Sequence record: MF327009
Reading direction: 5' to 3' (one strand)
DNA length: 64,000 bases
Source of the DNA: Shigella phage Sf25
Positions 1 through 60,541 of the stretch are shown here, piece after piece. Each line of letters opens with the position of its first letter. Position 1 is the stretch's first letter. A model generated the notes under the pieces. That model was not told the DNA's origin and made no database searches. It saw only the letters and a program-made list of their open reading frames with translations. The translations under genes and the position numbers were made by a program.

Positions 1-332
1 CATGTAGCAACCCATGTATCAAGGCTTGGATCTGAAATTAATGACATAAGTACAGCAGACGGTGCACGACCCTGAATGCTATCCAAAAGTGATTGATACT
101 TCAGGTTATTAGTAAAAATATCTTGCTGATATTGAGGAAGCTTGTTAAATTGTGCAGCATCCATCATCAAGTTTACTTCTTCAGGACGCCAGAAAAATGA
201 CAATTGCTTTTCGGTTAAATCTTCAAAAACTTTATGGCGTTGAATATCATAACGCGCAATACCAAGACCTGAACCGAAGAACATAGGTTCTTTTAAAACA
301 TCAACTGGATTTGTATTAAAAACTGTGCTCAT
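1..332 (-). CDS. nrdB: Ribonucleotide reductase small subunit NrdB, N-terminal fragment (continues beyond window start)
   Basis: Minus-strand ATG at 330-332; hand translation MSTVFNTNPVDVLKEPMFFGSGLGIARYDIQRHKVFE...; lies immediately downstream of nrdA as in T-even phages. Confidence 0.8.
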   Translation of the reverse strand, partial: MSTVFNTNPVDVLKEPMFFGSGLGIARYDIQRHKVFEDLTEKQLSFFWRPEEVNLMMDAAQFNKLPQYQQDIFTNNLKYQSLLDSIQGRAPSAVLMSLISDPSLDTWVAT

Positions 333-383
333 AAATTTTCCGCTTAGTTAATAGATAGTGACTCGTCCGTGAGTCAAATTATA

Positions 384-2897
384 TCATAATTTACAGGATG
401 AACAATCTTCAGCTTTTGGAGTTTCTATTTCATAATCATCAGTACCAGAACCGTCACGGGTATTATGATAATAGAAATTTTTTCCGCCAAAATACCAAAA
501 ATATAAAAGGTCATCAATCATTATTGACATTGGAACCTTTCCTTTTGGAAAAATCTGCGGGTCATAATATGTATTAGCTGAAGCTGATTGACATACCCAT
601 TTCAGCATAATAGCTACTTGCGTAAGATAAGGTTTATTGCCTTTCTTAGCTAATTTCCACGTATAATCATAGAGGTCTATGTTATGCTCAATATTGGGCA
701 CGACTTGATTAAAGGAACCCTCTTTTGATTCTTTAACAGAGACTGGTCCACGTGGAGGCTCGATACCGTTTGTACTGTTAGAAACTTGGGAAGATGACTC
801 ACATGGCATAAGTGCTGATAATGTGCTATTACGGATGCCAAAGAGCTTAAGGTCTTCCCGCAGCGACGACCAGTCACAAACGTATTTTGGAGCTGCGATT
901 TGGTCAATCTTTTTATTGTACCAGTCGATAGGTAATTCGCCTCGAGACCAACGAGTGTCTGAATAATATTCGCAAGGTCCTTTTTCTTTGGCGAGCTTAA
1001 TGGATGCTTTAATGAGTCCATACTGTAATCTCTCAAATAGTTCATGTGTTAAATCGTTAGCATCTTCATAAGAAGCAAAATTACTTGCCAGCCAAGCTGC
1101 ATAGTTAGTAACACCTACACCAAGATTTCGACGCTTTTTAGCTTTTTCTGCTTCAGGAACTGGATATCCTTGGTAATCCAAAAGATTATCAAGAGCACGA
1201 ACTTGGACTTCTGCCAATTCATTAATTTTATCTTGGTCTTGCCAATCAAAGTTATCTAACACAAATGCAGATAACGTACACAATCCAATTTCAGCATCAG
1301 GACTATTCACATCATTTGTTGGAATAGCAATTTCACAGCACAAGTTGCTCTGACGAATAGGTGCCTTTTCACGAATAAACGGAGTATAGTTATTCGTATT
1401 ATCTATGAACTGTACATAAATCCTTGCTGTTCCTGAGCGTTCAGTCATGAGCAATTCAAATAGTTCACGGGCTTTAATACGCTTTTTACGAATATTAGGG
1501 TCTTTTTCTGCTGCTTCGTATAATTCACGGAAACGGTCTTGGTCTTTAAAATAAGAATAATAAAGCTCGCCACCCATTTCATGCGGACTGAACAAAGTAA
1601 TGTAATCGTTCTTTCCGAATCGTTCCATCATCAAATCATTCAGCTGAACACCATAATCCATATGACGGATACGGTTTTCTTCTACACCTTTGTTATTTTT
1701 CAAAACGAGAAGATTTTCAACTTCCAAATGCCAAATAGGATAATAAGCAGTAGCAGCGCCGCCACGAATTCCACCCTGTGAGCATGATTTAACAGCAGTC
1801 TGAAAATGTTTCCAAAAAGGAATAACACCAGTATGGCGTACTTCACCTGTGCCAATCTTAGAACCTTCGGCACGAATCATACCAACGTTAATACCAATTC
1901 CATAATCCATATGACGGATACGGTTTTCTTCTACACCTTTGTTATTTTTCAAAACGAGAAGATTTTCAACTTCCAAATGCCAAATAGGATAATAAGCAGT
2001 AGCAGCGCCGCCACGAATTCCACCCTGTGAGCATGATTTAACAGCAGTCTGAAAATGTTTCCAAAAAGGAATAACACCAGTATGGCGTACTTCACCTGTG
2101 CCAATCTTAGAACCTTCGGCACGAATCATACCAACGTTAATACCAATTCCAGCGCGTTTGGAGATATATTCAACAATTGAAGCAGAAGCCTTATTGATAG
2201 ACTTTAATGAATCACCTGCTTCAATAACAACGCATGAACTAAACTGCCGAGTTGGAGTACGGCAACCAGCCATAATAGGAGTTGGCAGTGAAATCTGTCG
2301 AGTAGATACTGCTTCATAAAAACGGATAACGTGTTTTAATCTATCAACAGGTTCATCTTGATGCAATGCCATTCCAATAGTCATAAATGCAAACTGTGGA
2401 GTTTCATAAATTTGACCAGTGGTTTTATCTTTAACTAGATATTTTTCTTTTAATTGCATCGCCCCGGAATAAGTAAATTCCATATCCCGCTCGTGCTTAA
2501 TTTTTGATTCTAAAAATGTAATTTCTTCGGCAGAATATTTTGACAACAATTCAGGGTCATATTTACCTTCATTTACACAGTAAGAAATGTGGTCAATAAA
2601 TGAACGTGGTTCATACTGCCCATAAACATGCTTACGAAGAGCGAACATTAAACAGCGTGCAGCTACATATTGATAATCAGGCTCTTCAACTGAAATAGAA
2701 TTCGCAGCAGCCTTAATTACAATGGTTTGAATGTCATCAGTTGTCATTCCATCACGGAGATATGATTTAATATTTTCATATAATTCATAAGGATCTACAG
2801 ATGTTCCTTCAGCTGCCCAAGATAAAACTTTAATAATTTTTTGCGGGTCAAAGCTCTGAGAAACACCACTACTTTTGATAACATTAATTAATTGCAT
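384..2897 (-). CDS. nrdA: Aerobic ribonucleotide reductase large subunit NrdA; 837 aa including an 83-aa in-frame internal tandem duplication
   Basis: ORF track 837 aa; class I RNR alpha sequence; peptide GIGINVGMIRAEGSKIGTGEVRHTGVIPFWKHF...ENRIRHMDY occurs twice in tandem. Confidence 0.9.
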   Translation of the reverse strand: MQLINVIKSSGVSQSFDPQKIIKVLSWAAEGTSVDPYELYENIKSYLRDGMTTDDIQTIVIKAAANSISVEEPDYQYVAARCLMFALRKHVYGQYEPRSFIDHISYCVNEGKYDPELLSKYSAEEITFLESKIKHERDMEFTYSGAMQLKEKYLVKDKTTGQIYETPQFAFMTIGMALHQDEPVDRLKHVIRFYEAVSTRQISLPTPIMAGCRTPTRQFSSCVVIEAGDSLKSINKASASIVEYISKRAGIGINVGMIRAEGSKIGTGEVRHTGVIPFWKHFQTAVKSCSQGGIRGGAATAYYPIWHLEVENLLVLKNNKGVEENRIRHMDYGIGINVGMIRAEGSKIGTGEVRHTGVIPFWKHFQTAVKSCSQGGIRGGAATAYYPIWHLEVENLLVLKNNKGVEENRIRHMDYGVQLNDLMMERFGKNDYITLFSPHEMGGELYYSYFKDQDRFRELYEAAEKDPNIRKKRIKARELFELLMTERSGTARIYVQFIDNTNNYTPFIREKAPIRQSNLCCEIAIPTNDVNSPDAEIGLCTLSAFVLDNFDWQDQDKINELAEVQVRALDNLLDYQGYPVPEAEKAKKRRNLGVGVTNYAAWLASNFASYEDANDLTHELFERLQYGLIKASIKLAKEKGPCEYYSDTRWSRGELPIDWYNKKIDQIAAPKYVCDWSSLREDLKLFGIRNSTLSALMPCESSSQVSNSTNGIEPPRGPVSVKESKEGSFNQVVPNIEHNIDLYDYTWKLAKKGNKPYLTQVAIMLKWVCQSASANTYYDPQIFPKGKVPMSIMIDDLLYFWYFGGKNFYYHNTRDGSGTDDYEIETPKAEDCSSCKL
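1651..2148. repeat. Exact direct tandem duplication, 2 x 249 bp, inside nrdA (boundaries ambiguous by about 3 nt)
   Basis: Sequence beginning cataatccatatgacggatacggttttcttc recurs at 1652 and 1901 with no mismatch seen by eye. Confidence 0.9.
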
Positions 2898-2915: not shown

Positions 2916-3271
2916 TCGTCTTTAAACAATCGGTTAACTATATGAGCTATTATATCACCATGACACGGCTTTGGTTTACATGTGCATCCTAGCCTCATTC
3001 CACGTAAAGGCTCTAAATGTGCTTTAGTTATTTCTCCGGATTTAATTCGACGTATAAAATCTTTTTTGAATAATTCAATGGCAGCCTCCCGGCTCGTCTT
3101 TAAACAATCGGTTAACTATATGAGCTATTATATCACCATGACACGGCTTTGGTTTACATGTGCATCCTAGCCTCATTCCACGTAAAGGCTCTAAATGTGC
3201 TTTAGTTATTTCTCCGGATTTAATTCGACGTATAAAATCTTTTTTGAATAATTCAATGGCAGCCTCCCGGC
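2916..3271. repeat. Exact direct tandem duplication, 2 x 178 bp, spanning the 3' end of a small ORF just upstream of the nrdA start
   Basis: cgtctttaaacaatcggttaactatatgagc... recurs at 2917 and 3095. Confidence 0.9.
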
Positions 3272-3392: not shown

Positions 3393-3609
3393 ATTGTTCT
3401 TCCGTTAAAACAGTAATATCGTAGTAACAGTCAGAAGAAGTTTTAACTGTGGAAATTTTATTATCAAAATACTCACGAGTCATTTTATGAGTATAGTATT
3501 TTTTACCATAAATGGTAATAGGCTGTTCTGGTCCTGGAACTTCTAACTCGCTTGGGTTAGGAAGTGTAAAAAGAACGGCACCAGAAGTATCTTTAAATCG
3601 TAAAATCAT
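3346..3609 (-). CDS. Hypothetical protein
   Basis: ORF track 87 aa; stop overlaps neighbouring ORF; start overlaps td stop (ATGA-type coupling). Confidence 0.5.
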
Positions 3610-6412: not shown

Positions 6413-6441
6413 TAGTATCACACTACTACCCTTCTGTAAAC
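6413..6441 (-). promoter_or_regulatory. Putative sigma70-type early promoter (GTTTACA -35 / TACTAT -10, 17-bp spacer)
   Basis: Reverse complement reads GTTTACA...TACTAT upstream of ORF 6060..6302. Confidence 0.35.
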
Positions 6442-6887
6442 TACTTTTTGAAAGTTTTTCGCAAAAGTTCAATGATTTCATCTACATTGTTTTCGTCAAC
6501 AATGCAGTGAATTTTTGTTACGCCAGAAACCTTGTCTATGACTTCATCTACATTGTTTTCGTCAACAATGCAGTGAATTTTTGTTACGCCAGAAACCTTG
6601 TCTTTGACTTCATCTTCTTCAGAAGTCGGTTCTTTATACTCACGAAAACAATGAAATTCATCTTCGCAAATTTCTAAAAGTCTATCTTTGAGGTAAAAAT
6701 GCTTTCCATTTGCGCATTCAATGTGTTTTACTGCTTTATATCCATTAGCGACGGAAACTTCTTTAACTTCAAACCATCCGCCATTATCTCGAATAGCTTT
6801 AACGATTGATGAATTAGAACGTGGGCTATAATTAATAAATGTATCAATAAGTCTTGGAACAAGTTCATACTTTTTGCCAATATACAT
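6441..6887 (-). CDS. Hypothetical protein carrying an in-frame 22-aa tandem repeat
   Basis: ORF track 148 aa; DKVSGVTKIHCIVDENNVDE repeated. Confidence 0.55.
   Translation of the reverse strand: MYIGKKYELVPRLIDTFINYSPRSNSSIVKAIRDNGGWFEVKEVSVANGYKAVKHIECANGKHFYLKDRLLEICEDEFHCFREYKEPTSEEDEVKDKVSGVTKIHCIVDENNVDEVIDKVSGVTKIHCIVDENNVDEIIELLRKTFKK
6477..6608. repeat. Near-exact direct tandem duplication, 2 x 66 bp
   Basis: ttcatctacattgttttcgtcaacaatgcagtgaatttttgttacgccagaaaccttgtct occurs at 6477 and 6543. Confidence 0.85.
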
Positions 6888-8212: not shown

Positions 8213-8310
8213 TTTTATTTCCTTTTTAATTTAATTAACAGTTGGTGCTATGACGATGTATGACCTCATAGCTGGTCAGTGAGATAATTATAATCTATTT
8301 ATAATAAGCA
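8213..8310 (-). promoter_or_regulatory. Gene 32 5' control region: A/U-rich leader (candidate autoregulatory operator) plus overlapping late (TATAAATA, 8296-8303) and MotA-box-like middle promoter elements
   Basis: Minus strand reads TTGCTTATTATAAATAGATTATAAT ... AATTAAATTAAAAAGGAAATAAAAATG. Confidence 0.5.
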
Positions 8311-16134: not shown

Positions 16135-19100
16135 ATGGCTACTTTAAAACAAATACAATTTAAAAGAAGCAAAACTGCAGGTCAACGTCCTGCTGCTTCA
16201 GTATTAGCCGAAGGTGAATTGGCTATAAACTTAAAAGACCGTACTCTTTTTACTAAAGATGACTCGGGAAATATTATTGATTTAAGCATTTCTGCCGGTG
16301 GTAACATTAGTGGAAATATCACTCAAAATGGTGATTATTTACAAAACGGCACGTATAATCTTAATGGAAATCAGTTTGTTTATGCAGGAAAGTATATTGA
16401 ATTCTTGCCAAAAACTGCTGGAAATGGTGCTTGGGCAAATCAGCACACAAATAAAGCTCCAATTTTCACCGATTTGAGTTCAACTACTTCAACTTCTGAA
16501 TATCATCCGCTAATTAAACAACGTTATAAAGATGGAACGTTTTCATTAGGGACTTTAGTTTCTGAAGGCTCAATGAAGATACACTATATCGATGAAACTG
16601 GCACTTCAAAATATTGGACTTTCCGACGTGATGGTGGTTTTGTTGTTGATAGTGGTAGTTTAACTGTTACTGCTGGAAACATATCTGCTTCAGGCAATAT
16701 TAATTCGGCATCAGGGGTTGTTTCAGCTCCTCAAATTAATACAAAAACCATTGTTTTAGATACAAAAGCATTTGGACAATATGATTCGCAGTCATTAGTT
16801 CAGTATGTTTATCCTGGCACTGGCGAAACAAACGGTATAAACTATCTTCGTAAAGTTCGCGCAAAATCAGGTGGTACAATTTATCATGAAATAGCTTCAG
16901 CTCAAAGTGGAAAAAGCGATGAAATTTCGTGGTGGACTGGAAATACAGCCGTTAATAAACAAATGGGTCTTCGTAATGATGGTGCAATGGTATTACGTCG
17001 TTCACTTGCTATTGGCACAATTACTACAGATGAAAACGTAAATAACTATGGATCTGCTGGAGCAATGGGAGAAAAATACATTGTTCTTGGAGATGCGTCA
17101 ACTGGACTAGCTTATAAAAAGACAGGAGTTTATGACTTAGTTGGTAGTGGTTTATCTGTTGCTTCTATCACTCCCGACAGTTTTCGTAGTACCCGTAAAG
17201 CAATTTTTGGACGTTCTGAAGACCAAGGCGGTACATGGCTTCTTCCTGGTCAAAACGCTGCTCTTCTTTCAGTTCGTACAGATATTGATCAAAATAATAA
17301 CGGTGATGGTCAAACTCATATTGGATATAATAGTAACAGCAAGTTTTATCATTATTTTAGAGGCAGAGGCCGAATGGCTGTTGGAATGGCTGAAGGTCTT
17401 ATTGTTGAGCCTGGAATTTTAGATATTAAAACTGGTTCAAATACTGTTTCTATTAGAGCTGATGGCGGAATTTCATCTACTCAGCGTCTTTCATTGCAGA
17501 ATGGTATATTTTTATCTTCTGACGGAAATAACAACGGTATATCGTTTAAAGCTTCTAGCAGTATAGATGGAACTAAAACTCTTAATTGGGATGCTGGTAC
17601 TCGTGCAGGTCAAAACAAAAATACAGTAATTTTAAAAGCATGGGGAAATTCATTTAATACAAGTGGTGGAACTGATAGACATACTGTATTTGAAGTTTCT
17701 GATTCGCAAGGATACTACTTTTATGCTCAACGTACTACCCCTGCATCCGGTCAAACAGTAGGTCCTATTAATTTTAAATTTAATGGTACTGTAGAAACCG
17801 GTCATATCAATGGATTAGGTAATATTACTTTATCTGGGGCAGTTATAGCAGATTCTGCTAATATTAAAGGACCGCTAAAAATATCTAATGCTAATACAGC
17901 TGATGCTTTTAGAATATGGAACGCTGAATATGGAGCCATTTTCCGTCGTTCAGAAACATCATTGCATATTATTCCTACACTTAAAGATGCAGGGGAAAAT
18001 GGTGGAATAAGTAATCTTCGCCCATTAAGTATTGATCTTTCAAACGGATTTGTGCAAATGCATCATTCTCTTTCTGTGGGGAATACAGTAAGAACGAATG
18101 GATTGTTTGCTGTGGATACTTCAGCTGCTCTTGTTGCAATTAACAGATGTTCCTATTGTGAAACAAAGATACGTTCAAGGGAATAGCACCTATTCATTAG
18201 GTACTTTAATTAATGGTGGTGATTTCCGTTTACATTACCATGAAGGCGGTGACAGTTCTTCAACAGGTGCAGTTATAAAAGATATTTCCTGGGAATTTAA
18301 ACGTAATGGTGATTTCTATTCGCCAGGTCGTTTACGTACAGGAAATATCTATATTGGAACTGATGGTAATATCACGGGTGGTTCTGGTAACTTTGCTAAC
18401 TTGAATACAACTTTAAACCGTAAAGTTAATTCTGGTTTTATTACTTATGGAGCAACTGCAGGTTGGTACAAGTTTGCAACAGTAACAATGCCTCAAGCTA
18501 CATCAACCGTTTCAATTACAGTCACTGGCGGAAATGGATTTAATTCTGGATCATTTAATCAGTGTGCAATTTCTGAAATTGTTCTTCGTACAGGAAACAA
18601 TAATCCTCTGGTGATACATATGACATTTATGTTAATATGGGAACATATGCTAATCAGTTGATATTTAACTATAGTTCTGTTGATAATGCCACAGTTCAAA
18701 TTATTGGCGCATTCAGTTCAGCTCAAAATCCTGTTGATGCATTGCCAGAAACATATGTTAAAGGTCAGGTAGCAGATGTATTGACTAACTTAGTTGATTC
18801 TGGAAAAACGAAGCGTTTTGTTGCTGAATCTGAAATAGCTATTAATAATCAAACTGGATTACGTATTACGAGTAATGGTGATAAATCTGGTTCAAATTCA
18901 GTATTATTCAGAAATGATGGATCAGCGTTTTATATTCTTTTAACAGATAAAAACGCAGCAGATGGAAATACGACTGCCACAGAAGGAGATTGGAATGGTA
19001 AACGTCCTTTCCAAATTAATATGACTTCTGGTGAAGTAACATTCGGAAATAATATTAATATTTCTGGAAACGGAAGCATTACTTGGACAAAAGCCGGAGC

Positions 19101-19770
19101 AAACCCTAGAAATATGAGAATATTTCATGCAGGTGATGCTTCTCGTGGTAACCGTATTGAAATCGCAGATGATACTAATTATATTGCTTACTTTGAAAAA
19201 ACTCCAGGTGGAGCTAACCGCTTTGTAGTTAATGGTGCTACTGTAGCTGGTGTTAATCAAATGAATTCATTTGGTATTAACATCAATAACGCGCTTGGTG
19301 GAAATAGTATAGCATTTGGTGATAATGACACGGGTATTAAGCAAAACGGCGATGGATTATTAGACATTTATGCGAATGGTGTGCAAACGTTCCGTTTCCA
19401 AAACGGTGATTTGTACTCATATAAAAATATAAATGCCCCAAACGTTTATATTCGTTCTGATATTCGCTTAAAATCTAATTTCAAACCTATCGAAAATGCA
19501 CTTGATAAAGTTGAAAAACTCAATGGTGTCATTTATGATAAAGCTGAATATATCGGTGGAGAGGCAATTGAAACTGAAGCGGGTATTGTGGCTCAAACGT
19601 TACAAGACGTTTTACCAGAAGCCGTCCGTGAAACAGAAGACAGCAAGGGTAATAAAATACTCACTGTTTCTTCTCAAGCCCAGATTGCTCTTCTGGTTGA
19701 AGCTGTGAAAACGCTTTCTTCTCGTGTAAAAGAACTTGAATCTAAACTTCTTGAATCTAAACTTATGTAA
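16135..19770 (+). pseudogene. 37: Long tail fibre distal subunit gp37 (T2-type with C-terminal intramolecular chaperone domain), interrupted by two frame changes (frame 1, +1, frame 1)
   Basis: Three ORF-track pieces 16135..18186, 18098..18661, 18637..19770, each with fibre-like sequence; C-terminus ...IRSDIRLKSNFKPIENALDKVEKLNGVIYDK. Confidence 0.6.
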
Positions 19771-19773
19771 AAG

Positions 19774-19791
19774 AGGGCTTCGGCCCTCTAA
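19774..19791 (+). other. UUCG-tetraloop RNA hairpin between genes 37 and 38
   Basis: AGAGGGC-TTCG-GCCCTCT, followed by AAGGA RBS. Confidence 0.5.
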
Positions 19792-19800
19792 GGATTTTTA

Positions 19801-20498
19801 ATGGCAATTGTAGGTGTTCCTGGCTGGATTGGTGAATCTGCCGTGAATGAAACAGGACAGCGTTGGATGGATGCTGCAATGAGAGCAGTCCGTGTTTCAG
19901 TTCCCGGTTGGATGAGCTCAATGGCCGGACAATCTAAAGAAGTATATTATAGCATTGGTGCTAGTAATTCTTATAATAAAGATACATTAATAAACTGAAT
20001 GCATACGTGACACTTAATATCAATTCAGGCGTGCATGTTTGGGGCCGTGGCGGGAATGGCGGAAATAACTCTGCCGGTGGAGCAGGAGGAACTGCAATAA
20101 ATAATGGAATTGGAACTAGATTGCGTATTAACAACAATGGTGTTATCGCAGGAGGCGGTGGCGGCGGTGGAGGCGGATATTATTCTCCTTTTTCACAAAT
20201 GAAATTGACTTTTGGCGGTGGCGGCGGTCGTCCATTTGGTGCTGCTGGCGGGTCTGCTAATATGGAACAGGGCGCTACTGCTGGTACTATTTCTGCACCT
20301 GGTAAAGGGTCTGTCAATGGTATCTATAATGGCGGGAATGGCGGTGATGCTGGTGCCGCAGGTGGTAAATGTAATATTCGTGGGCAAGGATCAGAATATA
20401 ACGGCGGTGCGGCCGGTAAAGCTGTTACTGGTAATGCTCCAACTTGGACTAAGGTTGGTACAATATATGGCCCTCTGATATTCTATTTGGTGTTCTAG
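19801..20498 (+). pseudogene. 38: Receptor-recognising adhesin gp38 (T2-type, glycine-rich motifs), split into two reading frames
   Basis: N-terminal 65-aa ORF (MAIVGVPGWIG...) ends at a stop at 19996-19998; the glycine-rich part (GGGGGGGGYY...) follows in another frame from 20007. Confidence 0.55.
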
Positions 20499-25575: not shown

Positions 25576-25679
25576 TAGTAGATAACAACACAAATGTTAA
25601 ATATGCACACATACCCTGGGCTAAAGCTTGAAATTATTACGATAGAACTGCATCACATGTTCGTTATGGAAATTACTCA

Positions 25680-26529: not shown

Positions 26530-26718
26530 TTATTTTACACCATTCCAAATTGTTTCAACTACAGATTTTAAGCCATTTTGATGAATGTCCATTCCGACTA
26601 CCGCCATCAAATAGATTCCAACTACGTTTAACATATCAATCATTAAAACGATTGGGAATATACTCAAAACTACTAGTATTATAACTACATTCCATATAGC
26701 TTTAATAATCTTTTTCAT
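26530..26718 (-). CDS. Small membrane protein
   Basis: Start MKKIIKAIWNVVIILVVLSIFPIVL with GGAGG RBS; 62 aa. Confidence 0.5.
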   Translation of the reverse strand: MKKIIKAIWNVVIILVVLSIFPIVLMIDMLNVVGIYLMAVVGMDIHQNGLKSVVETIWNGVK

Positions 26719-29330: not shown

Positions 29331-31757
29331 TTAGGCCGCAAGGGCCTTCATAGTTTTAGCGATTTGAGAAACTTCATCATCACTTAAAGAGTTGCGATAA
29401 CCGATGAAGTCGGAAACAATACGGAATTTCTTGGTAAACTCAGCAACCATTTTATCACTGTTTTTTGAAGCATTATTTGATAATACATCAAAAAGATTAG
29501 TTACTGTCCAGATGTCATGACCGATGGTACCTTTTCCACCGTTGAAATATACGCCCCGCAATGAACTAACTATATTAGCGAGTCGTGTATATTCTTCAGA
29601 AACTTCATCTGTACTGAAGTACTTCATCATAAAATCTAGTTCAGGATACTTGATAATTTTATCAATATATCGTTGAGCTGAACTTGAATAACCTACGTAC
29701 TTATCATAATCTACATCATCAAAAGCATCTACATATAAATCACGCAGAGTTTCAAAAATACATTGGCACTGACCGAGTTCTTTTACCTTTTTCTGCAAAA
29801 GCGGACGAATAACATAAAATTCATTAATGCCAATAAGATTAGCCATACGAATCAAAATATTCATAGATGGATGACAAAGAGATGTAGTACCATCCATAGA
29901 GAAAATATCAGAACGATGCATATACGCTACATAACCAGTAATTTCATCTGCTTCTGATGTGAGCGTAAACAGTTCCTCTTTTTCCCATCGCCCATCTTTA
30001 ATTTCAAACTTAAATGCTGTAGCAGCTTTAGGACGAGGAGCTTTACTTTTAACTACCTTTGGAATATAGCTTTTAACTAAAGCTTCAATTTCTGACAAAT
30101 AATGAATGTTAACTTCATCACTTTCAAACATCGCCATAATATCAGGAAGTAAATCAATCTGCGATTCTACTTCTGGATTAATAAACAGAAGACGCTCATT
30201 GTGATGAATATTCAAAGTGTTATTAAATTCACTATCATCTAACGCATGTGCTAATCCACGAACAATATTAACACGATTTTTAATATTATCAATAACGATA
30301 TTAATTTTTGTTGTATTAATACCAAACAGACGATAACTTGATGCAACGGCTGAAGTTTCATGACTTTGCTTAATGCGTTTCAGTCGAGGGTCAAGATTTA
30401 CTTCATACACAACTCCTGCATTGCATAACTTACTGTCAGGTTCAAACATGCTCTGCATCTTTTTATATGACAGATTTTTAGTCGTGAATTTGACTGAATT
30501 ACTAATCATATAATCTCGAGCAGAATATCCCATCTTCATCAATTCACGATATGTGTGACGAGGAGATGTAGATTCTTTAAATCGTTTTACATCTTCATTG
30601 AATGCCTTCTCACTAAGCTCTTTAACACGCTCAATAATATTTTTACGAGTACGATCATCTAGTGAAAGAGCTTCGCGTGATGGAGCAATATCAAGTGAAC
30701 CCATTGGAAACTTAATGTAATTCACTTCATTGCGAATGCTTAGCCAGTTACGGTCTCTAATAACACCATCGATAGGATAAACAATACCGCCATAGATAGC
30801 ATATAATCCACCACGATCAGGCCAGTATCTTTCTGGATTTACACCATAATAATCATCAAAATCAGGAAAATAATCAATTTCAATAATATTTTTACGAGTA
30901 CGATCATCTAGTGAAAGAGCTTCGCGTGATGGAGCAATATCAAGTGAACCCATTGGAAACTTAATGTAATTCACTTCATTGCGAATGCTTAGCCAGTTAC
31001 GGTCTCTAATAACACCATCGATAGGATAAACAATACCGCCATAGATAGCATATAATCCACCACGATCAGGCCAGTATCTTTCTGGATTTACACCATAATA
31101 ATCATCAAAATCAGGAAAATAATCAATTTCGCGGTCAAGACCATTAATGATAGCCAAATCTTTGAACGGTCGCATGATATAAGAAACTTCATAAGCAAAG
31201 TTTCTAAAGTCTTTTTCTTCAACTGGAACTACGATTTCAATACCAGTTTTATCATCTGGACCCATTTCTTTTACGAATGTAGGTTTAATCTGTGGGCCAT
31301 CACCATCCATGTAAGCTACATAACCACGAATTTCACCTTTATGATACGAAGTAATACTAAACGTATCAGTATAACTAAACGGAGATTTAGAACCTAAACC
31401 AAATCCGCCAATAAAGTCATTAGATTCAGCCTTAGATGAACTGAAGTATGAATTATACAGCCCAGGAGAATTATCATCACCCTGAATATCAAAATCACTC
31501 ATACCCGGACCAAAATCTCGACAAACAAATCGTGGATCTAATCGTCCTGGAACTTGAATGATAAATTTTTCAGGATTTCCATTAAGTGCATGAGCATCAA
31601 TCATGTTAGTAATCAATTCACGGACTACTGCGCGAATCTTGTTTGTATACAAATCAGATGACAGAATTTTAAATACTTTAGGATTTGCTGCGATGCTAAA
31701 TGCTTTTGATTTAGAACCATTGCCAAGAATTGTTTCTTTTTCAGTGGTGATAATCAT
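29331..31757 (-). CDS. rIIA: rIIA protein; 808 aa including an 83-aa in-frame tandem duplication
   Basis: N-terminal GHKL-like ATPase sequence; peptide [25 protein letters not shown]...RTRKNII occurs twice. Confidence 0.9.
30632..31129. repeat. Exact direct tandem duplication, 2 x 249 bp, inside rIIA
   Basis: caataatatttttacgagtacgatcatctagtgaaagagc... begins at 30632 and 30881. Confidence 0.9.
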
Positions 31758-31767
31758 AATTTCCTCA

Positions 31768-31971
31768 TTAATTCATATTACGCTTAATAACTTCAGCAAC
31801 TTCTAGTAGTTCATCTTTAGTTGCAGTGTCGGATTGAATTTTATCTCTAATATCTTTAAAGCGGTTTTTAAATTCTTCGGCTTCTCCCATATCGAAAAAG
31901 CGTTGAATGATTCTATATTCTCGATGAACTGCTTTATCAAAAAGTTCTAAATTTACTTTATATGATTTCAT
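31768..31971 (-). CDS. Hypothetical protein
   Basis: ORF track 67 aa; GAGGA RBS. Confidence 0.5.
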
Positions 31972-31996: not shown

Positions 31997-32026
31997 ATTA
32001 TACCACATCCTTGTGGTAAAGTAAAC
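31997..32026 (-). promoter_or_regulatory. Putative early promoter (GTTTAC-N18-TATAAT) overlapping the 3' end of gene 39
   Basis: Reverse complement GTTTACTTTACCACAAGGATGTGGTATAAT. Confidence 0.5.
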
Positions 32027-33846
32027 TACTGGCTCATCCATTCTTTACGAAGGTCAGCATTATCTCCCATGAGCATTTCAAAAAGCTCTTTCCAGTTCTC
32101 AGGAAGTTTAACAACATCATATACTGGGTTTTGAATCATCTCACGATATTCAGATTTTTCCAAAGAGCCAAGTCCCTTAATATAACGGATGCTATGTTTA
32201 GGTAGAGCATCTTTGGCACTCTCATATTCAGCAACTGTATAAAACCATTCTTGTTTTTTACCGACCTGAGCGATGATTACAGGAGTTTTGACGAAGCGAA
32301 TTCTTCCTTGTTCAAACAGTTCTGGCCAATTACTAAAAAATCCGAGCAGAGAAGGATAAATGCTTCCTAGACCATCATGGTCAGCGTCAGTCATAATGGC
32401 AATATTATGATAATTTAAGTTTTCAGCCTTTTCACCAAGAACTAATCCAGTGATTGCGCAAATATCAAACAGTTCTTTATTTTTAAGCATATCAGCATAT
32501 GACATACCCCAACTGTTGAGAACTTTACCACGTAATGGATAACCACCATGAAGTTCTTTATCACGAACATCAATAAGATATCCGATAGCAGAATCACCCT
32601 CAGTCAAGAAAAGAGTCGTGTCAGCATCTTTACCACAAAGATTCGCTTTAATATGTTTATGAACCTTAGCTTTAGAAGCCTTTTTAGCTGCTTTAGTTTC
32701 TGCTGCTTTTTCTGCCGCCAATTTACGAGCCAAGGCAGCTTCAATAATTGGCATTAAAATTGCTTCATTATTTAAAATAGCACGTGAAATCTTTTTAGCA
32801 TCAAGCTGAATATGACTACGGATTTCACCAAATGGAGAAGTCAGACGCTCTTTAGTTTGAGAATCAAATCGCATGTTTTTCATATCGCGAACAAACATAA
32901 CGATAGTCAAACATTCTTTAACACGTGCTTTAGTTACGTCAATTTTAAATTTACGTTTGATTTGTGGAATAAGGTCTTCACAAATATCATCCATAACACA
33001 GTCAATATGATGACCACCATTCTTAGTATGAATGTTATTGACGTATGTTAATTGACGAAAACCATCCGGTGAACGACCAACCGCAATAGAACAATTTTCT
33101 TGTTCTTGAACAATAGCATGTTCATCATATTGGCGTGCATATTTCTTAAAATTGCCCTGAACCTTTTTACCATTAAAGGTAAATTGAATATCAGGATAAA
33201 CAACAGCAAGTGTCTGGAGACGATCTAATGTAATGTCAAGATAAACTTGGGACAGCTCATTAGTTTCAAATGACATAAAATCAGGAATGAAAGTAACACG
33301 AGTTCCTTTCCATTTTCCAGGAATATCTTCCCATGATTTATTTTCCATGCCATTTGAACAACGAACTACAATATTATTTTGACCGTCGCCAGTTTCACCG
33401 ACAAACATAACAGAAAAAATGTTAGTTAAACTAGAGCCAACACCGTTCATACCGCCAGTGACGCGTTCTTTATCATCGCCGAAGTTACCACCTGCTTTTG
33501 GAATAGTCCAGGCGGCAACAGGACCAGGAATTTCTTCACCAGTAGGTGTTTTAACCATCGCTTGTGGAATACCACGACCGTTATCTTCAACTGTTACTTG
33601 ATTGTTTTTAATAGTAACGTTAATTTTATTTGCGAATTTAAACTTAGTACGAATACCTTCATCTACTGAGTTATCGATAATTTCATCAATAAGCTTAACA
33701 AGACCAGGTACATACTGAACACTTTCCCATTTACCAAACAGAAAGCGCTCATGCATTTCATTAGCTGAAGAGCCAATGTACATGCCGCTACGCTTTTTGA
33801 TATGTTCAATATCGCTCAGAATTTTAATTTCATTCTTAATCATCAC
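32026..33846 (-). CDS. 39: DNA topoisomerase II large subunit gp39 (GyrB-like ATPase), unsplit form that includes the gp60-equivalent C-terminal region
   Basis: 606 aa; GHKL motif IIDNSVDEGIRT; C-terminus ...MTDADHDGLGSIYPSLLGFFSNWPELF... contiguous. Confidence 0.9.
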   Translation of the reverse strand: MMIKNEIKILSDIEHIKKRSGMYIGSSANEMHERFLFGKWESVQYVPGLVKLIDEIIDNSVDEGIRTKFKFANKINVTIKNNQVTVEDNGRGIPQAMVKTPTGEEIPGPVAAWTIPKAGGNFGDDKERVTGGMNGVGSSLTNIFSVMFVGETGDGQNNIVVRCSNGMENKSWEDIPGKWKGTRVTFIPDFMSFETNELSQVYLDITLDRLQTLAVVYPDIQFTFNGKKVQGNFKKYARQYDEHAIVQEQENCSIAVGRSPDGFRQLTYVNNIHTKNGGHHIDCVMDDICEDLIPQIKRKFKIDVTKARVKECLTIVMFVRDMKNMRFDSQTKERLTSPFGEIRSHIQLDAKKISRAILNNEAILMPIIEAALARKLAAEKAAETKAAKKASKAKVHKHIKANLCGKDADTTLFLTEGDSAIGYLIDVRDKELHGGYPLRGKVLNSWGMSYADMLKNKELFDICAITGLVLGEKAENLNYHNIAIMTDADHDGLGSIYPSLLGFFSNWPELFEQGRIRFVKTPVIIAQVGKKQEWFYTVAEYESAKDALPKHSIRYIKGLGSLEKSEYREMIQNPVYDVVKLPENWKELFEMLMGDNADLRKEWMSQ

Positions 33847-36723: not shown

Positions 36724-37223
36724 TAGTTTACATGAACATTAATCATTGCGCTGCGAGGAACTACGGAATACTCTCCAGCATGAACTACGTTCAGAAGTTC
36801 AACACCATTTTCAATCCATTGGTCAGTTACCCATCCATTTACTGGACCAGCGAATGGGCGTCGAATTGAAACATATTTACACAGCAGATCTGTAGGATCT
36901 GGAATTTTTTCAACTGGTGTTACATACATAGAAACTAAATCCATATCAATATGGGATTTTTCCTGTTCTTCTTTTTCAATTTCTGTCAATAAATTAAAAT
37001 CTTCTTCATAGATGATTAATGATGATACCTTTCCATAATAGTTTCTAATTTCCATGTACATCATACCAATGAGAATTCCATTATTAACACTAATAACAGT
37101 AAAAGGATATCCGCCAGTTGTACTAAGAAGTTCCCAAAACTTGCTATCAGTCGTATTCGACGTTGTCTGGAAATCAATTTCAGACGGTTTTTTCATTTGA
37201 TACGCAGCATTAATTTTAATCAT
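36723..37223 (-). CDS. Hypothetical protein, member 3 of the paralogous triplet
   Basis: 166 aa; C-terminal GWVTDQWIENGVELLNVVHAGEYSVVPR. Confidence 0.55.
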   Translation of the reverse strand: MIKINAAYQMKKPSEIDFQTTSNTTDSKFWELLSTTGGYPFTVISVNNGILIGMMYMEIRNYYGKVSSLIIYEEDFNLLTEIEKEEQEKSHIDMDLVSMYVTPVEKIPDPTDLLCKYVSIRRPFAGPVNGWVTDQWIENGVELLNVVHAGEYSVVPRSAMINVHVN

Positions 37224-41716: not shown

Positions 41717-42163
41717 TTATAGATTAAATCCTTCAAAATCAAGAGTATAGATAGTATATGTTGAATACTTTTTGTACTCATATCTATCTGCAATTCTAAA
41801 TACACTTCCAGCTGGTATCATTACTTCTTGTTCATCTGAAACTAATTCCATATTACGATAACGATGACTATCCGGAAACTTAAAGTTTGGATTGTATTCT
41901 TTACAGCGTAGAGCTTTTATAGCATACTCCTGGAAATTGAATACCATAGGAGCTTTGAATTCAAAAATAACTTGTGTGTTATACTCTAAAATTTCATTTA
42001 ACCAAGTATGGTCATCTGGTTTATTAGTAATACAATGAATTAAAAGTTCAATTTCAGATAAATTAAACCCTTCAGAAAGTAATTCTTCACGAATAGAAGC
42101 ACGCACCGATGCATCCATTGATTTTATTTTAAAATCTTTTAGTTGCATTACTGAGTATTTCAT
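41717..42163 (-). CDS. modA: ADP-ribosyltransferase paralog (ModA-like), shorter than expected
   Basis: 148 aa; catalytic E-x-E region SDEQEVMIPAG paralogous to the upstream ORF; start overlaps the modB stop (ATGA). Confidence 0.5.
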   Translation of the reverse strand: MKYSVMQLKDFKIKSMDASVRASIREELLSEGFNLSEIELLIHCITNKPDDHTWLNEILEYNTQVIFEFKAPMVFNFQEYAIKALRCKEYNPNFKFPDSHRYRNMELVSDEQEVMIPAGSVFRIADRYEYKKYSTYTIYTLDFEGFNL

Positions 42164-42809: not shown

Positions 42810-42839
42810 ATCATATCATCGTTAGAAAGGAAAGTAAAC
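42810..42839 (-). promoter_or_regulatory. Putative early promoter for modB (GTTTAC-N18-TATGAT); part of it is re-created in the adjacent duplication
   Basis: Reverse complement GTTTACTTTCCTTTCTAACGATGATATGAT, then GGAGG RBS. Confidence 0.5.
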
Positions 42840-43228
42840 AACTTTTTGAATTATTTTGCCCAGGGAGCCCAAGGCGGAGGGTCAAGATGGTATGAAGCTA
42901 GTTCTTCTAGAAGAGCATCTGGGGCTTCAATTCCATAATTCTGTAATACTATACGGTACTCTTTCTTATAATCACTAGAATCATTCTGGTTATTCGTAGA
43001 ATGATTATCTTCTAACATTCATATCATCGTTAGAAAGGAAAGTAAACAACTTTTTGAATTATTTTGCCCAGGGAGCCCAAGGCGGAGGGTCAAGATGGTA
43101 TGAAGCTAGTTCTTCTAGAAGAGCATCTGGGGCTTCAATTCCATAATTCTGTAATACTATACGGTACTCTTTCTTATAATCACTAGAATCATTCTGGTTA
43201 TTCGTAGAATGATTATCTTCTAACATCT
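42813..43228. repeat. Exact direct tandem duplication, 2 x 208 bp, covering a promoter/intergenic region and most of a small ORF
   Basis: atatcatcgttagaaaggaaagtaaacaactttttgaattattttgcccagggagccc... begins at 42813 and 43021. Confidence 0.9.
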
Positions 43229-45475: not shown

Positions 45476-45530
45476 ATTATTTATAATAAATTCTCGCGGC
45501 TTTTAAGTCGTCGTTTATTTAAATGAGCTA

Positions 45531-46293
45531 TTAATAGCCTCGATCTTGACGAGCGAAGTTTTCAGCATTTTTCAGATAATAAAGTTTAAAGATTTCCTCA
45601 GCTGACATTCCAAGAGCAATGAATTTATTCATGAAAAAGTGAAATTGGTCAATCAGTTCAAATTTAATTTCAAGCTGATCTTCAGGAGATAAGTCTTGAA
45701 TTTTCTTGGATTGCATTTCAGAATAACGTTTCTTCCAAGGTTTCCATACAGCAGAAGCTTCTTTTTCACCATTACTCATACCACCAAGAGAAGTATATAG
45801 CTCGCGAGTTTCATCTGCGATATAATCGTCTTGGTTTCGCAACCAAGCAAGAACTTCTCCTGCAGTTTCAAGTGAATCAGGATGACGATTTGTTTCTGGT
45901 TTATCATTAGCCAAACGAATCTGTAAATGCCGCTGCATGTCAAATTTTCTTGGATTGCATTTCAGAATAACGTTTCTTCCAAGGTTTCCATACAGCAGAA
46001 GCTTCTTTTTCACCATTACTCATACCACCAAGAGAAGTATATAGCTCGCGAGTTTCATCTGCGATATAATCGTCTTGGTTTCGCAACCAAGCAAGAACTT
46101 CTCCTGCAGTTTCAAGTGAATCAGGATGACGATTTGTTTCTGGTTTATCATTAGCCAAACGAATCTGTAAATGCCGCTGCATGTCAAGCATAACCTGCAA
46201 TGGGTCAATACTGTGCATAATATACTCAGCATATGCACGATTTGCTTTATCAACACCTTCGATCAAATGAGCACATTCATTAAAGTGAGCCAT
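45531..46293 (-). pseudogene. 56: dCTPase/dUTPase gp56 (MazG-like) disrupted by a frameshifting 244-bp tandem duplication
   Basis: N-terminal frame MAHFNECAHLIEGVDK... (AAGGAAA RBS) terminates at the repeat junction near 45940; C-terminal part ...ALGMSAEEIFKLYYLKNAENFARQDRGY is in another frame. Confidence 0.6.
45700..46187. repeat. Exact direct tandem duplication, 2 x 244 bp (not a multiple of 3), inside gene 56
   Basis: attttcttggattgcatttcagaataacgtttcttcc... begins at 45700 and 45944. Confidence 0.9.
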
Positions 46294-54536: not shown

Positions 54537-55381
54537 TCACCGTTATAATCTTTTTTCACAATATGAGTTTCGCCAGTATTCCACCAATGATCAACCAAGT
54601 AAAAATGACGAGAATATACATGAAGACTTCCAACATTCCATATAATAGAACCTGCTTTATACTGACGAGTTGAATCGCCGGCATTCAAATCAGATACTAA
54701 TTTATCTAATACGTATTTTTGCCATGCATAATCATTACGGAATCCGAAGACCACGTCATTTGAGCGCATGCTTACTACTGCATTGACTTTCTTATCACGA
54801 ATCAGGTACTGTACTGTATTAGTACACATGAAATCTGACATACCATCTTTATTGTAGTCAAATTGCATGGATGGACGAGTCATGCTTACTACTGCATTGA
54901 CTTTCTTATCACGAATCAGGTACTGTACTGTATTAGTACACATGAAATCTGACATACCATCTTTATTGTAGTCAAATTGCATGGATGGACGAGTATAAAT
55001 CATGATACCACGTCGAGAATCAGGATTTTGACCAAGTTCAGCTAAACACATATCATACTGGGCATAGTTATCTTCTGACCAAATAGCCCAACCATAATTC
55101 GAGTTAATTTCGCCTTTAGAAGATGCTACCTGCTGCCAAATCTTTGGTGTTTCGCCTGGAATATCTTTGACAAACAGACTTTGAGACTTGTACCATTCAA
55201 GTTCACGCTGAATGTATTCATCATTAAGAGCGCCAAAAATAAAGGGTTCATCTGCTACAAATGATGCGCCAATAATTTCAATAGTTTTAACACCGGTTTT
55301 ATCAACTACGAAATCTTTTTCTTTTAATGCAAGCCCCAAATGAAGACGGATTTCTTCAACTGTCATAAAGTCACTAATCAT
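54527..55381 (-). CDS. 42: dCMP hydroxymethylase gp42; 284 aa including a 38-aa in-frame tandem duplication
   Basis: ThyA-like fold sequence; peptide TRPSMQFDYNKDGMSDFMCTNTVQYLIRDKKVNAVVSM occurs twice. Confidence 0.9.
   Translation of the reverse strand: MISDFMTVEEIRLHLGLALKEKDFVVDKTGVKTIEIIGASFVADEPFIFGALNDEYIQRELEWYKSQSLFVKDIPGETPKIWQQVASSKGEINSNYGWAIWSEDNYAQYDMCLAELGQNPDSRRGIMIYTRPSMQFDYNKDGMSDFMCTNTVQYLIRDKKVNAVVSMTRPSMQFDYNKDGMSDFMCTNTVQYLIRDKKVNAVVSMRSNDVVFGFRNDYAWQKYVLDKLVSDLNAGDSTRQYKAGSIIWNVGSLHVYSRHFYLVDHWWNTGETHIVKKDYNGEWK
54767..54994. repeat. Exact direct tandem duplication, 2 x 114 bp, inside gene 42
   Basis: catgcttactactgcattgactttcttatcacgaatcagg... begins at 54767 and 54881. 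Confidence 0.9.
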
Positions 55382-60116: not shown

Positions 60117-60541
60117 TTACCATTCCAATGCTAGTTTTTTGAGTTGTTTCTGTTCTTTTACGTTCTTAGTCACTTCTTTCAAAAAATCATATCTTCGACC
60201 AGTTTTGCCCATTTACCATATCTTTTACCACGAGGAACTGCAGCCATCAGATAATTAAAATGAGCTTCATCACTTAAGCCTGATCCAATTAAATTCATAG
60301 CATATACAGCTGGCATGCACTCTGGAAATTGTGATAATGCATTTTCAACCATGAATTTTGAATAATCTTTTTGAGCAATAGAGCATTTAGTTTTATTATT
60401 AATAGCTCCAATTATTTCAAAAAATTCATTTTCAGCTTTTTCTTTAAAAGAATCAGCAGCAGATTGGACAGCTGTCCAATCTTTTGAATACCAAGCAACT
60501 TGATGCTCGTTTAATTGAATATCATCTTCAAATAAGCTCAT
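60117..60541 (-). pseudogene. 62: Clamp loader small subunit gp62, disrupted by an internal frameshifting lesion
   Basis: N-terminal frame [22 protein letters not shown]... stops at 60179 (...KLVEDMIF*); downstream, out of frame, [23 protein letters not shown] ends at the regA start. Confidence 0.55.

What the first reader, a model, noticed from the sequence alone, without database searches (positions are those of the whole stretch)
30632..31129. 249-bp in-frame tandem duplication inside rIIA
Adds 83 residues ([22 protein letters not shown]...RTRKNII repeated), giving 808 aa versus the 725 aa I recall for rIIA.
Basis: seen in the sequence. Interest (0 to 1): 0.5.

Follow-up and report, generated by a model that had tools for sequence, protein, structure and literature searches.

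The report
rIIA duplication is a sequence artefact
The 249-bp in-frame repeat inside the phage gene rIIA is really in the sequence, but it is one of about seventeen small, homology-free duplications and deletions that break essential genes across this T4-like window, so it is almost certainly an artefact of how the sequence was built, not a new rIIA variant.

Summary
Observation confirmed: 30631-30879 and 30880-31128 are 100% identical head-to-tail copies inside rIIA (29331-31757, minus strand). The ORF is 808 aa, against 725 aa in T4 and in every relative checked. Residues 210-292 are repeated as 293-375.

Interpretation: the description is correct, but a biological reading is not supported.
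- The window is a Tequatrovirus, 94-99.9% identical to Shigella phage Sf24.
- It holds six more perfect tandem duplications (249, 178, 208, 244, 114, 147 bp) and at least six to ten clean deletions (about 70-173 bp, one about 333 bp) that are absent from all relatives compared.
- These events frameshift gp56, gp62, gp37 and gp38, remove the holin start, and fuse a gp33 that has lost its C-terminal residues to an N-terminally truncated gp59.
- Every gene not touched by an event is full length.
- Junctions have 0-3 bp of microhomology, which is the random level. Real T4 duplications use about 2-10 bp.
- One imperfect 66-bp duplication in frd.2 does show a homology-mediated signature and serves as an internal control.
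- No public DNA or protein carries the rIIA junction.

Verdict: most likely a sequence-construction artefact, either pieces joined without merging overlaps or bridging gaps, or in-silico edits. Low interest. Junction-spanning reads or PCR would settle it.

The parts
29331..31757 (-). rIIA ORF as given (808 aa); 725 aa after removing one repeat copy
   Evidence: the ORF listing; PHROG 612 RIIA E=1.4e-277; synteny rIIB - rIIA - rIIA.1 - gp39 as in Sf24, T4, GiZh and FriedrichMiescher
30631..30879 (-). copy 1 of the 249-bp unit (protein residues 293-375)
30880..31128 (-). copy 2 of the 249-bp unit (protein residues 210-292); novel junction at 30879|30880, 2 bp microhomology
   Evidence: junction absent from the public collections searched
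1651..2148 (-). perfect 249-bp x2 tandem duplication in nrdA (in frame, +83 aa; 837 vs 754 aa)
2916..3271 (-). perfect 178-bp x2 tandem duplication in nrdA.1 (frameshift)
42811..43226 (-). perfect 208-bp x2 tandem duplication covering modA.2 and adjacent intergenic DNA
45699..46186 (-). perfect 244-bp x2 tandem duplication in gene 56 (dCTPase); frameshift splits it into aa 1-117 and aa 36-172
54767..54994 (-). perfect 114-bp x2 tandem duplication in gene 42 (dCMP hydroxymethylase), in frame, +38 aa
58837..59130 (-). perfect 147-bp x2 tandem duplication in gene 43 (DNA polymerase), in frame, +49 aa
8809..8810 (-). junction of a 173-bp deletion seen against all four relatives; removes gp59 aa 1-52 and the last 3 aa and stop of gp33, and fuses the two ORFs
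   Evidence: no phage record among the top hits spans it in one piece
18146..20470 (+). cluster of deletions (-173 at 18146, -70 at 18607, -104 at 20000, -72 at 20470) that split gp37 into three frames and gp38 into two, and remove the holin t start (aa 1-9)
   Evidence: -71/-72 at 20470 also seen against L002, L007 and L010
25630..25633 (-). junction of a deletion of about 134 bp that removes most of the ac gene region
26624..26625 (-). junction of a 129-bp deletion in the ndd.2a/ndd.4 region, seen against the four full-length relatives and all ten rIIB-bearing contigs (L001-L010)
41990..41991 (-). junction of a 156-bp in-frame deletion inside modA (148 vs 200 aa)
45498..45499 (-). junction of a deletion of about 333 bp between soc and gene 56 (may be natural variation)
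60190..60191 (-). junction of a 139-bp out-of-frame deletion in gene 62 (clamp loader): aa 1-117, then aa 165-187 in another frame
   Evidence: no phage record among the top hits spans it in one piece
6469..6615 (-). contrast case: imperfect 66-bp x2.2 duplication in frd.2 with a hybrid junction element between 15-bp direct repeats; looks like a genuine homology-mediated event

Best explanation
The rIIA repeat is not a property of a working phage gene. It is one member of a set of about seventeen small structural errors scattered roughly every 4 kb over an otherwise intact, high-quality T4-like (Tequatrovirus) genome segment. The set comprises seven perfect head-to-tail duplications of 114-249 bp and six to ten clean deletions of about 70-173 bp (one of about 333 bp).

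The most likely origin is the way the sequence was put together. Adjacent pieces such as contigs or amplicons were joined end to end. Where they overlapped, the overlap was kept twice, giving a perfect tandem duplication. Where they left a short gap, the gap was closed up, giving a clean deletion. Equivalent edits made in silico would look the same, and these tools cannot tell the two apart.

Shown directly: the events exist, they are specific to this window, they lack junction homology, and they break essential genes. Inferred: the joining mechanism. If the ORF were translated as written, RIIA would carry an 83-residue insertion after residue 292. There is no reason to think any phage makes this protein.
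For: (1) The rIIA event is not unique. There are seven 100%-identical two-copy tandem arrays in 64 kb, and two of them are exactly 249 bp, the largest size seen.
(2) Against four full-length relatives (Sf24, T4, GiZh, FriedrichMiescher) each duplication, and deletions of 173, about 134, 129, 156, about 333 and 139 bp, show the same window breakpoint and essentially the same size, so the window is the odd one out. Seventeen further contigs covering rIIA, the two partial metagenome loci L011/L012 among them, all have a single copy.
(3) Gene damage is incompatible with a viable phage. gp56 and gp62 are frameshifted. gp37 is in three frames and gp38 in two. The holin lacks its start. gp33 has lost its C-terminal residues and is fused to a gp59 lacking aa 1-52. 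DNA polymerase and dCMP hydroxymethylase carry insertions of 49 and 38 aa. Genes the events do not touch are full length, and divergence from relatives is natural: all 63 differences in gp39 are synonymous.
(4) Junction microhomology is 0-3 bp (mean 1.4, against 0.8 for random placement, p=0.09). Homology within +-15 bp of the breakpoints is 5-12 matches out of 30, against a random 8.2+-2.5. Real T4 duplications and deletions form at short homologies, typically 6-10 bp and 2-10 bp in rII studies (PMC9391042).
(5) Internal control: the one imperfect duplication (66 bp, frd.2) does have a 12/15 direct repeat at its ends and a hybrid junction, so genuine events are recognisable here and look different.
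(6) No public sequence holds the rIIA junction. The exact 808-aa product is not on record. The junction 41-mer is absent from the viral contigs. The top-ranked of the 496 matching phage records (the 8 listed) align across it in two pieces. The 120 best of 1564 protein hits are all 725 aa.
(7) False duplications at gaps and contig joins are a documented class of assembly error (PMC9516828).
Against: The source record and its reads could not be found, so the artefact is inferred, not observed. rIIA is dispensable in hosts without Rex (PMC11879866), and this particular duplication is in frame, so taken alone it would be biologically tolerable. Assemblers that join by overlap would leave junction homology, so the joining step must have been overlap-blind (scaffolding, N-stripping or manual concatenation) or in silico; that part is speculative. 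The duplicated units are only weakly enriched in conserved sequence (combined p=0.009, driven by two units; the rIIA unit is ordinary). Both rIIA copies carry the same mosaic boundary, so there is no sign that they come from two different strains or contigs.
Confidence: 0.85

Rival explanations
1. Only the rIIA duplication is a genuine, recent in-frame tandem duplication in a viable phage, giving an 808-aa RIIA, and the other events are unrelated errors.
For: It is in frame. rIIA is non-essential without Rex (PMC11879866). T4 does form tandem duplications at rII (Kumagai 1993, as cited in PMC9391042). The window also holds one natural-looking duplication, in frd.2.
Against: It has exactly the signature of the artefact class: 100% identity, 2 bp microhomology, 9/30 flanking matches, and the same 249-bp size as the nrdA event. 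Among the listed best of 496 matching phage records and the 120 best of 1564 protein hits, none has it. From general knowledge, a perfect 249-bp direct repeat should be lost quickly to T4's very active homologous recombination unless it is selected.
Confidence: 0.05
2. All the events are real and sit on a real but defective DNA molecule. Examples would be a genome kept going by complementation at high multiplicity, or a damaged replication intermediate rearranged by homology-independent joining such as topoisomerase-mediated illegitimate recombination.
For: Duplicated bases (1455) and deleted bases (about 1483) nearly balance, which recalls headful-packaging compensation (PMC9391042). The junctions lack homology, as end-joining would predict.
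Against: About 17 events in 64 kb with no accompanying point damage, since untouched genes are intact. Several essential genes are broken at once. The sizes are confined to about 66-249 bp with two at the maximum, which looks technical. T4's terminal redundancy of several kb makes an exact 1.4-kb compensation unnecessary (general knowledge).
Confidence: 0.05
3. Chimeric co-assembly of two or more related T4-like strains: contigs from different strains were joined in shared conserved stretches, and the overlaps were duplicated.
For: BLAST blocks against Sf24 alternate between about 99.8% and 95-97% identity, and some block ends fall at events. Two duplicated units are unusually conserved.
Against: The fine mismatch profile shows that several events (8809, 60190) lie inside uniformly near-identical stretches, and that identity change-points are offset from the junctions. 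Both rIIA copies contain the same internal mosaic boundary and the same four differences from GiZh, so they are copies of one sequence and not of two strains. This is a sub-case of the artefact explanation and is not needed to explain the data.
Confidence: 0.05

Closest known systems
T4 RIIA (rIIA 'lysis inhibitor', Rex counter-defence protein; PHROG 612)
   Same: Full-length homology (E=1.4e-277). After removing one copy it is 725 aa and 2 aa from the closest public proteins. It has the same neighbours as in T4 and its relatives: rIIB, rIIA.1 and topoisomerase gp39.
   Different: As written it is 808 aa, with residues 210-292 repeated. None of the best-matching public homologues listed has this.
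Homology-mediated tandem duplications and segmental amplifications in T4 (rII duplications, Kumagai et al. 1993; dmd-tifA amplification, Srikant et al. 2022, PMC9391042)
   Same: Head-to-tail direct duplication in a T-even genome, with deletions elsewhere in the same genome.
   Different: The known events use 2-10 bp (typically 6-10 bp) of junction homology, are selected, and delete only non-essential DNA, in blocks of 0.7-6 kb. Here junction homology is at the random level, the events are 66-249 bp, and essential genes are hit. Only the 66-bp frd.2 duplication fits this class.
False duplications and false deletions at contig joins or gaps in genome assemblies (e.g. PMC9516828)
   Same: Perfectly identical adjacent copies, many per sequence, accompanied by missing segments, on an otherwise accurate sequence, with an apparent size cap of 249 bp.
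   Different: No gap characters (N) are present, and no read depth is available to show the expected lack of support. An overlap-blind joining step has to be assumed.

Membership tests
RIIA protein family (T4 rIIA) | Sequence homology over the whole length to RIIA profiles and proteins | tested here: met
   phrog_612 E=1.4e-277; 1564 hits at E<=1e-30, best 1788 bits; the collapsed protein is 2 aa from P0001-P0004
RIIA protein family (T4 rIIA) | Conserved genomic position between rIIB and rIIA.1/gp39 | tested here: met
RIIA protein family (T4 rIIA) | Canonical single-copy architecture (725 aa in Tequatrovirus) | tested here: not met
   808 aa as given; the RIIA profile is matched in two stretches, the best covering residues 1-293 on profile positions 1-291; all 120 best homologues are 725 aa
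RIIA protein family (T4 rIIA) | Function: allows growth on Rex-carrying (lambda-lysogenic) hosts | not testable with these tools
   Needs plating on E. coli K-12(lambda); background in PMC11879866 and PMC9391042
Genuine T4 homology-mediated tandem duplication | Head-to-tail direct repeat with one novel junction | tested here: met
Genuine T4 homology-mediated tandem duplication | Short homology (2-10 bp, typically 6-10 bp) at the ancestral breakpoints, one copy retained at the junction | tested here: not met
   2 bp at rIIA and 0-3 bp at all perfect arrays, equal to random expectation; 9/30 flanking matches against a random 8.2+-2.5; standard taken from PMC9391042
Genuine T4 homology-mediated tandem duplication | Carried by a viable genome (essential genes intact) | tested here: not met
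   gp56, gp62, gp37, gp38, t and gp33/gp59 are disrupted by sister events in the same window
Genuine T4 homology-mediated tandem duplication | Supported by reads or molecules spanning the junction | not testable with these tools
   No reads available; junction absent from the public collections searched
Assembly or concatenation artefact (false duplication at a join) | Copies exactly identical, multiple events per sequence, accompanied by missing segments | tested here: met
   seven arrays at 100% identity and six to ten clean deletions, all window-specific
Assembly or concatenation artefact (false duplication at a join) | Events indifferent to reading frame and gene essentiality | tested here: met
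   three of the seven perfect arrays and several deletions are out of frame, including in essential genes
Assembly or concatenation artefact (false duplication at a join) | Size bounded by a technical limit (read length or overlap length) | tested here: inconclusive
   the maximum of 249 bp is reached twice, and all events but one are <=249 bp; the sequencing method is unknown
Assembly or concatenation artefact (false duplication at a join) | No read support or abnormal depth at the junction | not testable with these tools
   source record and reads not found

The most novel reading that the evidence does not exclude
The window is a faithful read of a real DNA molecule: a T4-like genome riddled with homology-independent duplications and deletions of 70-250 bp, including the rIIA one. 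That would point to an undescribed, highly active end-joining or template-switching process, or to a defective-genome population kept going by complementation, in T-even phages.
Probability: 0.04. Interest if true: 0.65.

Novelty: not a real feature. Interest (0 to 1): 0.08.

Why it matters
Taken at face value, the window would suggest a new RIIA architecture in one of the most studied genes in genetics, plus insertions in DNA polymerase, ribonucleotide reductase and dCMP hydroxymethylase. Showing that these belong to one class of homology-free, essential-gene-breaking events prevents false gene-gain and domain-duplication calls. It also flags the whole window, and probably its source record, as structurally unreliable. 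Any other finding from this window that rests on a tandem repeat, an odd ORF length or a truncated gene should be checked against the event list given here. The one natural-looking event, the 66-bp in-frame duplication in frd.2, is the only rearrangement in the window that may deserve biological attention.

Tried and rejected
1. Finding the source record. None of these was the source. The exact 808-aa product is not on record. The junction 41-mer and a private 44-mer are absent from the viral contigs, and the 44-mer from the genome contigs. Two metagenome contigs hold the 44-mer but are only about 96% identical and single copy. There was no match in the E. coli genomes. The exact gp39 occurs only on OL615012.1, which is 94% identical. 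Contigs carrying P0019, P0001 and P0004 are 96-98% relatives.

2. Artificial recoding of the window. Rejected: differences from relatives are overwhelmingly at third codon positions, with amino-acid changes in rIIA but none in gp39, as under natural purifying selection.

3. Chimeric multi-strain contigs as the cause. BLAST block identities first suggested it. The fine mismatch profile and the shared mosaic boundary in both rIIA copies weakened it.

4. Selection for reading frame. Nine of about 19 event sizes are multiples of 3, against about 6 expected. This is not significant, and out-of-frame events hit essential genes.

5. Structure prediction to place the breakpoints in the RIIA fold. The available homologues are 99-100% identical, and the AlphaFold2 model has mean pLDDT 32 and is unusable. 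There is no solved structure. Pfam gives only a sub-threshold GHKL ATPase hit at residues 43-143.

6. Inversions or dispersed copies. None found.

7. The 58 extra bases at 36914-36971 are unique sequence in a naturally variable region, not a duplication.

8. Kumagai 1993 and the Miller 2003 T4 review are not held in the library.

Full report
OBSERVATION. The repeat is real and exact. Tandem Repeats Finder reports one array at 30631-31130 with period 249, 2.0 copies, 100% matches and no indels. The repeat finder gives 30631-30879 and 30880-31128 at 100% identity. The array lies inside a minus-strand ORF, 29331..31757, of 808 aa. In the protein, the 83-residue unit [13 protein letters not shown]...RTRKNII occupies residues 210-292 and again 293-375. 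T4 rIIA is 725 aa (12..2189). Removing one copy gives a 725-aa protein only 2 residues away from the closest public RIIA proteins. The PHROG RIIA profile matches in two stretches (best: residues 1-293 on profile positions 1-291), consistent with the repeated segment being matched twice.

WHAT THE WINDOW IS. It is a Tequatrovirus (T4-like) segment running from nrdA through the tail-fibre genes, rIIB/rIIA, topoisomerase, dda, modA/B, 56, 61, 41, uvsX, 42, 43, 62, 44 and 45 into gene 46. It is collinear with Shigella phage Sf24, at 94-99.9% identity depending on the stretch. Its divergence from relatives is natural. In gp39 all 63 nucleotide differences from OL615012.1 are synonymous, while rIIA shows 5-12 amino-acid changes against most relatives compared. 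The exact source was not found in any collection.

THE KEY FINDING: THE rIIA REPEAT IS NOT ALONE. A whole-window repeat scan shows seven perfect two-copy tandem arrays:
- 1651-2148, 249 bp, in nrdA
- 2916-3271, 178 bp, in nrdA.1
- 30631-31128, 249 bp, in rIIA
- 42811-43226, 208 bp, in modA.2
- 45699-46186, 244 bp, in gene 56
- 54767-54994, 114 bp, in gene 42
- 58837-59130, 147 bp, in gene 43
There is also one imperfect 66-bp array in frd.2.

I compared the window with four full-length relatives: Sf24, T4, GiZh and FriedrichMiescher. Every one of these duplications appears with the same breakpoint against all four (size identical in all but one comparison, 244 vs 241 bp against T4 at gene 56), so the window is the odd one out. 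The same comparison shows clean deletions specific to the window:
- 173 bp at 8809|8810
- about 134 bp at 25630
- 129 bp at 26625
- 156 bp at 41990|41991
- about 333 bp at 45499
- 139 bp at 60190|60191
Against the relatives that can be aligned there, it also shows 173, 70, 104 and 72 bp missing in gp37, gp38 and t. There are no inversions and no inverted repeats.

CONSEQUENCES FOR GENES (tblastn with the Sf24 proteins).
- gp56 (dCTPase) is split by a frameshift into residues 1-117 and 36-172.
- gp62 (clamp loader) runs through residues 1-117 and then 165-187 in another frame.
- gp33 has lost its last three residues and is fused to a gp59 lacking residues 1-52.
- The holin t lacks residues 1-9, including its start.
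- gp37 lies in three frames and gp38 in two.
- ac is reduced to 20 residues.
- modA has lost 52 residues.
- nrdA, gp42 and gp43 carry in-frame insertions of 83, 38 and 49 residues.
By established T4 genetics (general knowledge; the CRISPRi-ART study refers to 50 established essential T4 genes, PMC11879866), genes 33, 37, 38, 42, 43, 56 and 62 are essential and t is needed for lysis. Every gene the events do not touch is full length. The sequence is therefore high quality apart from these events, and a genome carrying them all could not form plaques.

MECHANISTIC SIGNATURE. Real T4 duplications and deletions arise by recombination between short homologies. These are typically 6-10 bp, or 2-10 bp in rII studies, and one copy of the homology remains at the junction (PMC9391042, citing Kumagai 1993). 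Here junction microhomology is 0-3 bp, with 2 bp at rIIA. The mean is 1.4 bp against 0.8 bp for simulated random placement (p=0.09), and the chance of reaching 6 bp at random is 0.003. In-register matches within +-15 bp of the two ancestral breakpoints are 5-10 out of 30 for the seven perfect arrays and 6-12 out of 30 for the deletions, against a random 8.2+-2.5.

The frd.2 array is different. In single-copy relatives its unit is flanked by TCAATGATTTCATCT and TCTTTGACTTCATCT (12 of 15 identical), and the window's junction element is the hybrid TCTATGACTTCATCT. That is what a genuine event looks like. The window thus contains its own positive control, and the rIIA repeat does not resemble it.

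IS THERE ANY PRECEDENT? No.
- The top-ranked of the 496 matching phage records (the 8 listed) align across the rIIA junction in two pieces.
- About 490 records carry a rIIA match covering most of the query; all 40 listed have a 2178-bp rIIA.
- The 120 best of 1564 protein hits in the 5.8-billion-protein collection are all 725 aa.
- All 17 fetched contigs covering rIIA, two of them only partly, and all four full-length relatives are single copy.
- The deletion junctions in gp33/gp59 and in gp62 also have no precedent among the top hits.

WHICH KIND OF ARTEFACT? I first suspected a chimeric multi-strain assembly, because BLAST blocks against Sf24 alternate between about 99.8% and 95-97% identity. 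A 250-bp-resolution mismatch profile shows that several events sit inside uniformly near-identical stretches and that the change-points are offset from the junctions. At rIIA, a tract 100% identical to GiZh and to a Logan contig ends at gene nucleotide 830, inside the repeated unit, and both copies carry the same four downstream differences. The two copies are therefore copies of one sequence, not of two strains. The units are only weakly enriched in conserved sequence (combined p=0.009, driven by two units; the rIIA unit is ordinary).

What remains is overlap-blind joining of adjacent pieces, where overlaps are kept twice and small gaps are closed up, or equivalent in-silico edits. The sizes are confined to about 66-249 bp, with the maximum reached twice, which fits a technical bound such as read length minus one. 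Duplicated bases (1455) and deleted bases (about 1483) nearly balance; I cannot explain this and it may be chance. False duplications at gaps and joins are a documented class of assembly error (PMC9516828).

RIVALS.
(a) Only the rIIA event is real. This is possible in principle, because rIIA is dispensable without Rex (PMC11879866) and the event is in frame. But it shares every feature of the artefact class, including the exact 249-bp size of the nrdA event.
(b) All the events are real, on a defective molecule. About 17 homology-free events with no point damage and a narrow size range make this unlikely.
(c) Strain chimerism. This is weakened as described above and is in any case a form of artefact.

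WHAT LED NOWHERE. The structure prediction of RIIA was unusable (mean pLDDT 32), because all available homologues are 99-100% identical. There is no solved structure. Pfam gives only a sub-threshold GHKL-ATPase hit at residues 43-143. I therefore cannot say whether residues 210-292 form a structural unit.

VERDICT. As biology it is most likely not a real feature (confidence about 0.85). Interest is low. The practical value is a warning: the whole window is structurally unreliable, and other oddities in it should be checked against the event list. Junction-spanning reads or a single PCR across 30500-31300 would settle the matter.

Noticed in passing
window 6469-6615 (frd.2 ORF 6441-6887, minus strand): Imperfect 66-bp x2.2 in-frame tandem duplication (148 aa against 126 aa in Sf24). 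In single-copy relatives the unit is flanked by a 12/15 imperfect direct repeat, and the junction element here is a hybrid of the two, which is the signature of a genuine homology-mediated event. None of the top-matching phage records has it. frd.2 was the only gene of unknown function scored 'Fit' in a T4 CRISPRi-ART screen (PMC11879866).
   Followed up: partly
window 1651-2148, 2916-3271, 42811-43226, 45699-46186, 54767-54994, 58837-59130: Six further perfect two-copy tandem duplications (249, 178, 208, 244, 114, 147 bp) in nrdA, nrdA.1, modA.2, gene 56, gene 42 and gene 43. They belong to the same class as the rIIA event and are absent from all four full-length relatives.
   Followed up: yes
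window 8809|8810, 18146-20470, 25630, 26625, 41990|41991, 45498, 60190|60191: Clean, homology-free deletions of about 70-173 bp (one of about 333 bp) specific to this window. They disrupt gp33/gp59, gp37, gp38, holin t, ac, ndd.2a/ndd.4, modA and gp62.
   Followed up: yes
whole window: Duplicated bases (1455) and deleted bases (about 1483) nearly cancel, and two duplications share the maximum size of exactly 249 bp. Both facts hint at a technical process, but neither is explained.
   Followed up: no
window about 30930-31950: A tract of about 1 kb (the 5' part of rIIA plus rIIA.1) is 100% identical to phage GiZh and to Logan contig SRR10176819_14817, while the flanks differ by 2-5%. This is a natural mosaic patch. 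Its boundary, at rIIA nt 830/831, lies inside the duplicated unit and is the same in both copies.
   Followed up: yes
window 32026-33846 (gp39), 3606-4466 (td), 8276-8310: The topoisomerase large subunit is one unsplit 606-aa ORF, with no gene 60 split and no mobA insert. td is 286 aa with no intron, and there is no segG between genes 32 and 59. This is ordinary variation among T4-like phages. The gp39 protein is identical to that of OL615012.1 even though 63 nucleotides differ, all synonymously.
   Followed up: partly
window 7184, 23852, 26729, 27236, 35667, 47701, 50111, 56438 (about 66 nt each): A dispersed family of eight intergenic repeats at 61-80% identity, with conserved TGTAAAC and TATAGTACCA-type boxes. 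They look like T4 early-promoter elements read on the opposite strand.
   Followed up: no
window 11806-12476 (gene 34): Three 68-nt direct repeats at 69-72% identity inside the proximal tail-fibre gene. These are natural internal repeats of gp34.
   Followed up: no
window 36914-36971: 58 bp of unique sequence absent from T4, GiZh, FriedrichMiescher and several contigs, in the variable motB.1/motB.2 region. It is not a duplication and is probably natural variation.
   Followed up: partly
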